Source: Octopus vulgaris (Eukaryota). From it: a stretch of 64,000 bases of DNA. The translations under genes were made by a program, and so were the position numbers. Below, in pieces: positions 1-57,639 of the stretch. The notes under the pieces were generated by a model, which had not been told where the DNA came from, made no database searches, and saw nothing but the letters and a program-made list of their open reading frames with translations. Numbering within the stretch: position 1 is the first letter of the stretch; every line of letters begins with the position of its first letter. The DNA lies in assembly GCA_951406725.2 (NCBI GenBank), contig OX597837.1, positions 2,542,001 through 2,606,000 of the forward strand. The letters run 5' to 3'.

Positions 1-300
1 CGTTCGTGAAGGGGTTTTATGATCCAAGTGCAACTTGCATTGAACTGTTTTGCTAATTCTTGTGCAGTTTGCTTTGGACTTTTCTCAACAACTGTTTCCA
101 GAAAATCAATATTGATAGAACTCGGTCGTCCTGATGCAGAGGAATCTGCGAAAGGAAATACATCCCGATCGAAAATAGCCAAACTGTTGTTGGAATATCC
201 GGGCATTTAAAGCTTCATCTCCACAGACAGAGCGAATGCTTCTTTCCATTTCTGTGGCAGAAGAATCCATTTTGAATACAGACAACATGCAGAGTCTATA
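1..300 (-). mobile_element. Degraded mariner transposase, N-terminal HTH region (continues off the window edge)
   Basis: Minus strand translates, with one frameshift, to MLSVFKMDSSATEMERSIRSVCGDEALNARIFQQQFGYFRSG...DSSASGRPSSINIDFLETVVEKSPKQTAQELAKQFNAS. This matches the Mos1/Hsmar-type pattern (A..I..VYG..AL..R..Q.WF..FRSG...D..RSGRP). Confidence 0.85.
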
Positions 301-12824: not shown

Positions 12825-13428
12825 GTAATGTAAAAAATTACAAAGGATATATTATAAATAATTAAGATTATTTATGAATATATCAATGGCCAAATATGTT
12901 ATCATAAAATATAAAGAAGTCACAATTATAACTAAGAGCGTTTTTAAAAAAACCCTTACATGTTAAAAATAGCAGCCAAAACCGCTATTAAGCCATTGTA
13001 TCATTCATATTATTTCTCCTCACGATAAAAACTGCCGTCGAGTGACATGGCAAATAGAATGCACAACTTGAAAATAGTTGGTTAATTCCCTATTGCAATT
13101 TCGGCGTTAGAGACCACTTAAGGGACCCATTCGCCTCGTCAGGGGAAATATTCCTATAGATAGAAATCAAAACAAGACTTTACCTTGGGGCTAGCGTGAA
13201 TCCCGACCAGCAAGAGAAACATTTCAACCTTTGTCTATACAATCAAGTTTTAAATTCAAATGCCATGCCCAGCGTTCATGTGAAAAGACGGGTACTGTCG
13301 AGCCACGCCAAAGACACCAGATATGAGTTAGGAAAATTTAAGTAAGTGGAGAGTTATGTAAAAACATTACGAAGTATATGTTATAAATAATTAAGATTAT
13401 TTATGGATATATCAATGGCCAAGTATGT
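12825..13428 (-). mobile_element. Non-autonomous hammerhead-bearing element with terminal direct repeats (Penelope-derived or retrozyme-like)
   Basis: About 75-bp direct repeats whose 42-bp cores (12852-12893 and 13381-13422) differ at one base; period 529 bp. Internal HHR; flanked by (TA)n and (TACA)n. Confidence 0.7.
13086..13147 (-). ncRNA. Minimal type I hammerhead ribozyme
   Basis: Minus strand: ttccc-CUGACGA-ggcg...cgcc-GAAA-u(ugca)a-UA-gggaa. All core nucleotides are present, stem I is 5 bp, the stem III loop is palindromic, and the predicted cut lies between 13091 and 13090. Confidence 0.85.
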
Positions 13429-13539: not shown

Positions 13540-13735
13540 GTTGAAATTTATAGAAAAACAAAAGACGAAGACAGGTGTATGAACAACAAGCAGGTGTATT
13601 AGTTTGACGTTCGGGAAAAGGAAAAAGTGTTTTACGTTTCAAGCCTATGCTCTTCAGCAGAAAGGAACATGAGAAAATAAACAGAGAGAGAATGGAAAAA
13701 ATGTGTAGATTTCAGCGGTCCAGCATGGCGAATAG
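13540..13735 (-). mobile_element. Short interspersed repeat carrying a degenerate minimal hammerhead (13630-13663)
   Basis: Minus strand: ttt-CUGCUGA-a-gagc(atag)gctt-GAAA-cg-UA-aaa. A fragment of the same repeat occurs inverted at about 46382-46416. Confidence 0.6.
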
Positions 13736-13980
13736 AGTATATGTTAAAGAAGAAAATGGTGAGTTTTGACAGATAACATCAATTTATTAACATATTGTCA
13801 ATTTATATATGCGTGTGTGTGTGCGTGCGTGTAGATATATATATGTAAATGTAAAAAAATACAAACTGGGACAAGAACGTGAAACATTTAGAAGACGATA
13901 CAAAAAACACGGACGGGACATTCGAAGCCTTCAATCTTCAGTCAAATCATACGCATTATTATTACTGGAAAAAATTCAAA

Positions 13981-14036
13981 GTCTTACAGCTGTTTCTGGA
14001 ATATCCCAGGGTATGGGATATTCCATCATCAGAGAC
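13981..14036 (-). ncRNA. Minimal type I hammerhead ribozyme
   Basis: Minus strand: gtct-CUGAUGA-tggaatatccca(taccc)tgggatattcca-GAAA-c(agcu)g-UA-agac. Perfect 12-bp stem II, GUA cleavage triplet, palindromic loop III. Confidence 0.92.
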
Positions 14037-14287
14037 ATATAGGGAAAAATGGGGAAACAAGAATGGTATATATTGATAAAATGAGTATATAGCGGAAGGG
14101 AGGAAATGAATAAGGACATGGAGAGAGAAAAGAAAAAAGAAGCATAAAATTTCATAGTTGAACTTTCTGATGTCGTGGAAACAAGTGTCTAAGTCCTTAA
14201 GTGGAATCTTGCGTAGATCCATGTGGGTTAAAATCCTGATATTGTAAACATCCAGAGAAAAAAGATGCGAACATATCAACGTTATTG

Positions 14288-14554
14288 AAATCTGCATAAG
14301 GAGGAAGTAGATGTCTTCAAAAAGGAACTAGACATTCTCCTCTCCACAGTATCGGAAGAAAGCAACAGCCCAACATGAGGTGCAGACGAGGGCAGCAGAA
14401 TCAAACTCCCTTCCACACCAAATGGGACAACAGCTGGGACAAAGGCACATACAGGTGTGGTGATGTAAAACACCCCAGACTGAGAAAATCAGCAAGACCA
14501 CGGTGATGCTCCAGCATGACCGCAGCCACATGGCTCCGAAACGAGTAAAAGAGT

Positions 14555-14556
<2 letters not shown>
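14288..14556 (+). mobile_element. 3' end of a CR1-group LINE (ORF2 C-terminus and 3' tail)
   Basis: NLHKEEVDVFKKELDILLSTVSEE...EVQTRAAESNSLPHQ, then tail gtgatgctccagcatgaccgcagccacatggct...gaaacgagtaaaagagtaa. Clade assigned from remembered motifs. Confidence 0.75.
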
Positions 14557-14610
<54 letters not shown>

Positions 14611-56329: not shown

Positions 56330-57019
56330 CACACGCAAGCATAATCTGTCCCTCTCTCTCTCTCTCTCTCCCTGTCTGTGTTTGTTTCTCTTGAAATAGA
56401 TAAACGTGCATGCACACACATACAGACACACACACACATATATATGCATATATATGTGCATATATATATATACTCGCCCACACACACACACATACATGCG
56501 CAATCACATGCATACACACACATATAATATCTGATATATATACTGTATTTCTCCAAAAATATATACACACATTGAATGATTATAAACCTAATATTTATTA
56601 AAATACTTTTCATTTTCACAATTATAAAGAATCTACAATCAGAATTTTAATATTTTATTAATACTAGTTTTTAAACTGATGACCATTCTGGCCCAGACAC
56701 CCTTGATAATGCGAAACAATGGAATCGCAAACACCAAGAAACATTTCGTTCGATATTTGTGCGTATTATTGTTCAATGGATGCCCTCAATTAATTTGTAG
56801 ACTGTTGCTAGCTTTGTACCGTAAGCCTTTTTTTTTTTAAGAATACCCATTAAAAAAAGTCTAGTGAAGTTGAAGTGAGGTTCGATGAACGCAGAGGATA
56901 TTGTACTGAACTTTGTCTAGTCACCTGTTCGGCAAAAAGAAAAACATAAGGGAGATAACTGATAATTCGATGTGAAGCAGACGTAAACCAGATGTTCTGT
57001 GATCTACTTTTAAATTCCG

Positions 57020-57580
57020 ACAAGATGTATATTTTGAAATGTAGACAGAGAAAAAGTCTCATTCCTCGAATTAATGTGTTCGTTGGAGATTCTTATATAT
57101 TTTAATAGATACAGTTTTTTCAAGCGAACATTCTGAACATTTTCGAGACTCAATATAGGGGCTGGATTTAGGGGGGAGTTTCCATTTGATATCGAAATTG
57201 GTCCCTTCGTCTTTAAGTTTCCAGATTAAAGCCGAAAGGGTTGTTAGAGGCATCTTATCACGGAACCTAAAATTCGAAAGATGGTTGTTACATCAACATT
57301 TAAATTTTCCTTCCACGGTTCCGATATAACGTTTGATATTTGTAAGGCCATTGTCGGAGTTTGCTGAAACTTGTGCTTCATAAACAACAGAAGAGATGTT
57401 CACACTCCTATCCGAGAGGATACTTCGATTTGTCTCTACATGTGCATCCGGGGCAGGCTTCAGTCGTCTGTTGCTTATTGATATACAACTTAACATTAGG
57501 AGGACAAGAAAAGGTAACTTTTATTGTGTGTCTGTTAAAGAATTTATTGTATCTATGGGTTCTAGGGAAGTGGATATACG
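57020..57580 (-). mobile_element. Penelope-like element remnant: C-terminal GIY-YIG endonuclease (frameshifted)
   Basis: HFPRTHRYNKFFNRHTIKVTFSCPPNVK...CTCRDKSKYPLG / SSVVYEAQVS...KRYIGTVEGKFK..YNNHLSNFR / TTLSALIWKLKDEGTNFDIKWK...PY..SRKC..C.LEK...NSRNE. Confidence 0.9.
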
Positions 57581-57639
57581 CAGATGTATATTTGTGTATG
57601 TGTATGTTTATATTAATATGCAAGGTGTTTACGGTAGCC

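What the first reader, a model, noticed from the sequence alone, without database searches (positions are those of the whole stretch)
13981..14036. Canonical minimal hammerhead with a perfect 12-bp stem II
Seen: every core nucleotide (CUGAUGA, GAAA, GUA), a 4-bp stem I, a perfect 12-bp stem II, and a 2-bp stem III closed by the palindromic loop AGCU. Known: this architecture is typical of PLE-associated minimal HHRs, which are thought to cleave as dimers. Its stems are unrelated to those of the HHR at 13.1 kb, so it represents a second family. It is the best candidate here for a still-active ribozyme.
Basis: partly seen in the sequence, partly recalled or inferred. Interest (0 to 1): 0.72.

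Follow-up and report, generated by a model that had tools for sequence, protein, structure and literature searches.

The report
Hammerhead on a decayed Penelope stub
This is a real hammerhead-ribozyme sequence on a broken-off end of a jumping gene with over 1,400 similar motifs in this genome; such ribozymes are predicted to cut RNA only in pairs, its "perfect" stem likely arose by random decay, and this lone copy is likely inert, so it is an ordinary member of a known kind.

Summary
The motif is real: a type I minimal hammerhead on the minus strand (14036 to 13981), cut site predicted at 13985/13984. It lies in a 342-bp fragment (13942-14283) of the end repeat of a Penelope-like retrotransposon whose longer copies carry RT plus a C-terminal GIY-YIG domain with the Hydra-clade motifs. 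The core pattern has 1,465 exact genomic matches (control 0). The "perfect 12-bp stem II" is not a family trait. Two of its pairs are mismatches in most relatives (C.A and A.C), and 0 of 47 independently found same-subfamily copies have 12 contiguous pairs. The family stem starts one base further out, as in published PLE hammerheads. This copy differs from the subfamily majority at 31 of 340 positions, is cut off at both ends and has no partner within -24/+50 kb. Its monomer helix III is predicted not to form (P about 0.002). So "best candidate for a still-active ribozyme" is not supported; "PLE-associated, dimer-type, second family" is. An octopus Hydra-clade element with such a hammerhead is published (Hydra-1_Obim, PMC8557442), and this scan has reported the same kind on other DNA. 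New family member; low interest.

The parts
13981..14036 (-). Type I minimal hammerhead motif (whole)
14033..14036 (-). Stem I, 5' strand (pairs with 13981-13984)
   Evidence: 94.3% of cells paired in 61 copies, (partly by how copies were found)
14026..14032 (-). Core C3-A9 (CUGAUGA)
13997..14025 (-). Stem II hairpin; 12 bp here, but 14025/13997 is a C.A or A.A mismatch and 14022/14000 an A.C mismatch in most same-subfamily copies; family stem starts with G-C at 14024/13998
13986..13996 (-). GAAA and the 8-nt palindrome (13993-13986): 2-bp helix III as monomer, predicted 8-bp intermolecular helix III in a dimer
13984..13985 (-). Predicted scissile bond after GUA (A17 = 13985)
   Evidence: position; cleavage not tested
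13942..14283 (-). 342-bp fragment of the end repeat (3' UTR/pLTR) of a Hydra-clade-like Penelope-like element; 5' truncated about 250 nt before the core and cut about 42 nt after the cleavage site
14284..14560 (+). Unrelated abundant repeat abutting the fragment (LINE-like 3' end by recalled resemblance of its translation; not tested)
13540..13941 (-). Unrelated repeats replacing the family's tail; 13540-about 13745 is a high-copy repeat with another minimal-hammerhead-like motif (core starts 13657)

Best explanation
The motif is the hammerhead sequence carried in the end repeat of a Penelope-like retrotransposon that is likely of the Hydra clade, and this copy is a truncated, 9%-diverged fragment that is likely inert because it has no partner to pair with. 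SHOWN: the motif, its copy number, its physical link to RT + C-terminal GIY-YIG in longer copies, copies with a hammerhead at both ends about 3.3 kb apart, head-to-head inverted insertions ending in (TA)n/(TG)n, and the two majority mismatches in stem II. INFERRED: in a pLTR-ORF-pLTR transcript the two hammerheads would pair through the 8-nt palindrome into a double hammerhead and cut after GUA, about 250 nt upstream of the ORF start and again in the 3' repeat, releasing a unit-length RNA. Cutting is likely slow or needs the element's protein, since 87 of 128 sampled insertion arms were copied through an uncut ribozyme. After insertion the copies decay; two C-to-T changes here happened to close two mismatches.
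For: 1,465 exact matches to the core pattern, control 0. 342-bp repeat at 81-87% identity elsewhere. Continuous DNA homology from a GIY-YIG-like domain to the hammerhead in several loci, e.g. L075, L081, L084, L086, L089. Full or near-full copies L133, L134, L137, L139 with hammerhead-bearing repeats beside the ORF; L133 has one at each end; cut-to-ATG 247 nt in L134. Motifs DKT, YRDD, CxCX5C match the Hydra definition. Profile search: 2,404 relatives at E<=0.001, best an 806-aa protein that aligns along the whole ORF. Atlas clusters with PF26215/PF00078 at 0.93-0.95. Published Hydra and other PLE hammerheads show the same extra base on both sides of stem II and a palindromic helix III. Monomer helix III P about 0.002, homodimer fold shows the double hammerhead. 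No partner in the window or the 10 kb before it. All six long copies tested have broken ORFs (longest stop-free stretch 129-323 aa).
Against: No tree with named Hydra references was built; clade rests on motifs and by-eye comparison with the published Hydra-1_Obim protein. Pfam finds no significant domain in the natural fragments and only sub-threshold GIY-YIG in 2 of 8 relatives. Covariation inside the family is no better than shuffles (0.054 vs 0.056; 358 of 500), so the structure rests on core identity and on published relatives. The unit (about 3.3 kb) is longer than the 'generally <3 kb' of Hydra elements. This copy still has every core base and is predicted to dimerise (-50.1 vs 2 x -22.6 kcal/mol), so it could cut in a tube. 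Transcription of the locus is unknown.
Confidence: 0.85

Rival explanations
1. The copy is a kept, working ribozyme: selection preserved the core and perfected stem II, and it cuts a host transcript that runs through it.
For: All core bases, stem I and the palindrome are intact; only 3 of 56 positions differ from the majority against 28 of 284 outside; both stem II changes add pairs.
Against: 3 of 56 vs 28 of 284 is not a significant deficit (Poisson P about 0.2, by hand). 13 of 47 independently found copies are equally intact. The 14025 change is shared by 17 of 48 rows and sits at a CG dinucleotide. It removes the unpaired base after A9 that PLE hammerheads conserve. Monomer helix III P about 0.002. 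No partner in cis. No host protein domain among 120 ORFs scanned (1 hit, a transposase HTH), though short exons would be missed.
Confidence: 0.05
2. The copy is unselected but can be cut now and then in trans, by pairing through its palindrome with one of the many other family copies in nuclear RNA.
For: Shared palindrome in 1,465 exact-core copies; dimer fold predicted; family sequence is present in contigs of runs guessed to be RNA.
Against: Predicted gain on dimerising is small (-4.9 kcal/mol); published minimal dimers cut poorly even in cis; run type is only a guess and contigs show no ends.
Confidence: 0.07
3. It is a non-autonomous retrozyme/SINE-like unit rather than a piece of an autonomous element.
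For: Most copies are short and non-coding; PLE repeats are proposed ancestors of animal retrozymes.
Against: 5' ends are spread over 300 nt or more rather than fixed; homology runs on into the ORF in long copies; no head-to-tail short tandem array here.
Confidence: 0.03

Closest known systems
Hydra-clade Penelope-like elements and their hammerheads, incl. Hydra-1_Obim of Octopus bimaculoides (Craig et al. 2021; bioRxiv 10.1101/2021.04.23.441226 passages and section 11; PMC8557442 supplement part 2 and searched passages)
   Same: Single ORF with RT then C-terminal GIY-YIG, DKT, CxCX5C linker, no cysteine pair inside GIY-YIG, (TA)n insertion, sense-strand type I hammerhead near the 3' end with an extra base on each side of stem II and palindromic helix III (several listed ones read acag..ctgt then a).
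   Different: Hammerhead stems differ from Hydra-1_Obim's; the family's 16-nt core tail has 0 occurrences in that supplement; longer 3' UTR (about 0.9 kb) and unit about 3.3 kb; this subfamily has a longer stem II with an internal A.C mismatch.
Minimal hammerheads of metazoan PLEs (Cervera and De la Pena 2014, PMC4209133; main text parts 1-2 of 4, supplement parts 1-2 of 3)
   Same: Helix I 4-5 bp, long helix II, unpaired base after A9, G10.1-C11.1, palindromic helix III, mostly single dispersed copies; single motif inactive and dimers weak in their assays.
   Different: Palindrome is longer here (8 nt, vs the 4-nt bare form); in the window copy the unpaired base has become part of a U-A pair.
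Hammerhead of the Anolis Poseidon element PAc (Frangieh et al. 2024, PMC11167929; passages)
   Same: PLE hammerhead in the pLTR upstream of or at the ORF start; most insertions made from uncut RNA.
   Different: There the ORF starts inside stem II and cleavage was shown to need the element's protein; here the cut is about 250 nt before the ATG and nothing was assayed.
Animal non-LTR retrozymes (PMC7229834 passages; bioRxiv 10.64898/2026.07.22.740005 part 1 of 5)
   Same: Type I hammerhead, dimer cleavage through a short helix III.
   Different: Those are short tandem arrays with canonical loop contacts and abundant circular RNA; this is a dispersed truncated end of a protein-coding element.

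Membership tests
Hammerhead ribozyme, type I | Core C3-A9, G12-A15.1, U16.1-H17 with helices I-III, open at helix I | tested here: met
Hammerhead ribozyme, type I | Match to an Rfam hammerhead model | tested here: not met
   minimal PLE forms are not what these models were built on (own knowledge)
Hammerhead ribozyme, type I | Compensatory changes in the helices | tested here: inconclusive
   83.1% of cells paired, covariation 0.054 vs 0.056 shuffled; family too homogeneous in the stems
Hammerhead ribozyme, type I | Site-specific self-cleavage | not testable with these tools
   no assay; contigs cannot show RNA ends
PLE minimal hammerhead | Unpaired base after A9 and G10.1-C11.1 | tested here: met
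   family level: first position unpaired in 48 of 61 copies, next pair G-C/G-U in 51 of 61; in the window copy that position is paired U-A
PLE minimal hammerhead | Short palindromic helix III | tested here: met
   8-nt palindrome 13993-13986
PLE minimal hammerhead | Lies in the pLTR of a PLE | tested here: met
   L133 both ends; L134 5' end; L137, L139 3' end plus inverted 5' piece
Hydra-clade PLE | RT followed by C-terminal GIY-YIG in one ORF | tested here: met
   order of tblastn hits in L133, L136, L137, L139; frames broken in all six copies tested
Hydra-clade PLE | DKT in place of DKG | tested here: met
   L133, L134, L139; not picked up in L136, L137, L138
Hydra-clade PLE | CxCX5C linker and no CCHH cysteine pair between GIY and YIG | tested here: met
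   L137, L139; L075, L087 show one Cys in that stretch
Hydra-clade PLE | Insertion into (TA)n | tested here: met
   short arms end about 91 nt after the cut and mostly run into (TA)n or (TG)n (by eye, not counted)
Hydra-clade PLE | Length generally under 3 kb | tested here: inconclusive
   about 3.3 kb between the two hammerheads of L133; one listed Hydra element is 3,045 bp with an inverted piece
Hydra-clade PLE | RT groups with Hydra references in a tree | not tested
   no named reference sequences available to the tools
Non-LTR retrozyme | Short head-to-tail tandem units each with a hammerhead | tested here: not met

The most novel reading that the evidence does not exclude
The family's shared 8-nt palindrome lets hammerheads in separate transcripts pair and cut in trans, so that hundreds of dispersed intact copies, this one included, form a genome-wide pool of latent cut sites; and the small excess of insertion 5' ends just downstream of the cut (16 of 128 arms at +5 to +14) is a fossil record of cleavage of the element's RNA in the germ line.
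Probability: 0.1. Interest if true: 0.5.

Novelty: new member of a known kind. Interest (0 to 1): 0.12.

Why it matters
Little, as a single locus: it is one of well over a thousand decayed copies. Its use is as a caution, since a perfect hairpin in one repeat copy can come from decay, and as material. The family has a long 8-nt dimer palindrome and full pLTR-ORF-pLTR copies, which makes it a convenient test case for the open question of what PLE hammerheads do in vivo.

Tried and rejected
Rfam scans: nothing for this motif. Pfam on natural ORF fragments: nothing significant. Word-indexed protein searches with two fragments against longer proteins: 0 hits of 150 and 504 candidates. Cluster look-up gave no names. 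Nematis assignment, my first guess from recall, was dropped when DKT, CxCX5C and the missing cysteine pair matched Hydra. Sequencing runs: no RNA holder listed; four runs laid were all contigs of guessed or unknown type and show only other family copies, so no statement on expression. Pile-up of 5' ends at the cut: 0 of 128 arms start between -1 and +4; 16 start at +5 to +14 (1.04 per 100 per nt vs 0.6 in the 50 nt upstream). This is inconclusive, because AT-rich palindromic microhomology there could favour head-to-head junctions and the two arms of a pair are not independent; 87 loci of the first 100 listed matches of 352 were used. In the short subfamily about 4 of 30 arms start after the cut (by eye). 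Host gene: 1 of 120 ORFs scanned had a Pfam hit, a transposase HTH. Lunse et al. 2017 (dimer cleavage of PLE hammerheads) is not held; known only through a review passage. Two paper searches for the effect of the 10.1-11.1 pair gave no direct measurement; a search for hammerhead + octopus gave only Craig et al. as relevant.

Full report
OBSERVATION. The motif reads on the minus strand from 14036 to 13981: 4-bp stem I, CUGAUGA, a 12-bp hairpin with a 5-nt loop, GAAA, a 2-bp helix III with loop AGCU, GUA, then the 3' strand of stem I. The predicted cut is between 13985 and 13984. A strict descriptor finds it once in the window and in 0 of 100 shuffles. Rfam gives nothing for it. The first stem II pair is U-A rather than G-C.

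IT IS A REPEAT. The genome is 2.8 Gb in 227 contigs. An octopus-type host is my inference from size, microsatellite load and earlier scan notes, not a test. The motif sits in a fragment 13942-14283 with many copies at 81-87% identity. The core pattern has 736 + 729 = 1,465 exact matches, control 0. Most listed matches are shorter-stem subfamilies; 19 match the window's long-stem subfamily exactly over the whole motif, and a downstream anchor of that subfamily has 352 exact matches. The fragment is bounded by unrelated repeats on both sides, so it lacks both the ORF and the family's tail.

THE PARENT. Walking upstream in other copies reached a GIY-YIG-like domain about 0.9 kb before the hammerhead, then a thumb and RT. 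A profile of seven natural fragments found 2,404 relatives at E<=0.001; the best, 806 aa, aligns along the whole ORF in order. The Atlas gave clusters with PF26215 and PF00078 at 0.93-0.95. Pfam itself gave nothing significant, and two word-indexed searches were blank. L133 has a hammerhead-bearing repeat at both ends, about 3.3 kb apart; L134 has one 247 nt before the ATG; L137 and L139 have a 3' one plus an inverted 5' piece. 38 head-to-head pairs were seen among 87 loci. DKT, YRDD and CxCX5C are present. These are the hallmarks of the Hydra clade, whose published list includes Hydra-1_Obim from Octopus bimaculoides with its own, different hammerhead; this family's 16-nt core tail is absent from that supplement. 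No tree was built. All six long copies tested have broken frames.

THE PERFECT STEM IS AN ACCIDENT. Against 54 aligned rows (19 loci dropped beforehand as re-fetches or overlaps; a few duplicates may remain) the window differs from the majority at 31 of 340 positions, within the 4-16% range of other copies. At 14025 the majority is C (31 of 48; T 17, at a CG dinucleotide), facing A. At 14000 it is C (44 of 46), facing A. In 61 aligned motifs (63 found, 2 with a deleted core left out) the first pair is formed in 13 and the fourth in 29, of which 28 are G-C in short subfamilies and one is the window's A-U. Among 47 long-form copies found only by a downstream anchor, 0 have 12 contiguous pairs, 30 have C.A at the first position, 44 have A.C at the fourth, and 13 have core, palindrome and stem I intact. 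So the family fold has one unpaired base on each side before G10.1-C11.1, as in published PLE and Hydra hammerheads. Against my reading: covariation within the family is no better than shuffles (358 of 500), and the core is somewhat less diverged (6.4%) than the upstream flank (10.8%) though like the downstream flank (7.0%).

MECHANISM. As a monomer the hammerhead fold has P about 6e-5 and helix III about 0.002 in context. Cofolding two copies gives the double hammerhead through the 8-nt palindrome, -50.1 against 2 x -22.6 kcal/mol; for majority-type copies the palindrome pairs but the full fold was recovered in only 2 of 6. Inferred: two hammerheads on a pLTR-ORF-pLTR transcript pair and cut, giving a unit-length RNA. 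Published minimal motifs do not cut singly and cut weakly as dimers; the Anolis PLE hammerhead needs the element's protein and uncut RNA is the main template; GUA is slower than GUC in a viroid hammerhead (abstract). In line with this, 87 of 128 insertion arms extend through the cut site and none starts between -1 and +4; a small excess at +5 to +14 is inconclusive. The window copy has no partner in the window or in the 10 kb before it, and no predicted joint helix with the 13.1-kb motif. No host gene was recognised. Expression is unknown.

SECOND FAMILY. The 13.1-kb motif belongs to a different repeat with its own conserved hammerhead and palindrome, seen in 8 of 12 loci, and shows no match to this one.

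PAPERS SEEN. PMC4209133: main text parts 1-2 of 4, supplement parts 1-2 of 3. Craig et al.: passages and section 11 of the preprint; supplement part 2 of 59 and searched passages of PMC8557442. PMC11167929, PMC6765202, PMC7229834: passages. bioRxiv 10.64898/2026.07.22.740005: part 1 of 5. PMC1636495: abstract. Lunse et al. 2017: not seen, only cited in a review; it or unseen supplements and repeat libraries may already list this very family.

VERDICT. Observation confirmed; interpretation partly supported. New member of a known kind, probably inert at this locus. Earlier notes of this scan describe the same kind in this and other genomes; my Hydra reading was reached before reading them. Interest 0.12.

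Noticed in passing
window 13086-13147 (-), in a repeat about 12825-13420: A second hammerhead with intact core, G-C first pairs and a different 8-nt palindrome; family of at least 40 copies at 78-89%; one copy (L261) has a Hydra-like GIY-YIG end upstream. As good or better a candidate than the finding.
   Followed up: partly
window 13540-13745 (-), core at 13657: Very high-copy repeat (5,595 first-look candidates) with a bare minimal hammerhead; relatives have C where the window has U before GAAA.
   Followed up: partly
window 13870-13945: Short stretch with very high depth in laid contigs and a degenerate CUGAAGA-hairpin on the minus strand; it cuts off the tail of the finding's fragment.
   Followed up: no
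window 56676-57600: Another degenerate Hydra-like piece: weak tblastn hits on the minus strand at 57080-57572, and a loose hammerhead-like motif on the plus strand at 56676.
   Followed up: no
L066, L079, L106, L131, L133, L134, L137: Many longer, ORF-linked copies have C instead of U at core position 4 (9 of 48 rows); may be a subfamily trait or a CG effect.
   Followed up: no
L140-L229: In head-to-head pairs one arm usually stops about 91 nt after the cut at a microsatellite while the other runs on towards the ORF start, i.e. two priming sites.
   Followed up: partly
L016, L021, L024, L030: Several other minimal-hammerhead families in flanks of fetched loci.
   Followed up: no
window 109-300 (-): Mariner/Mos1 transposase HTH fragment (PF17906, E 1.4e-5).
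   Followed up: no
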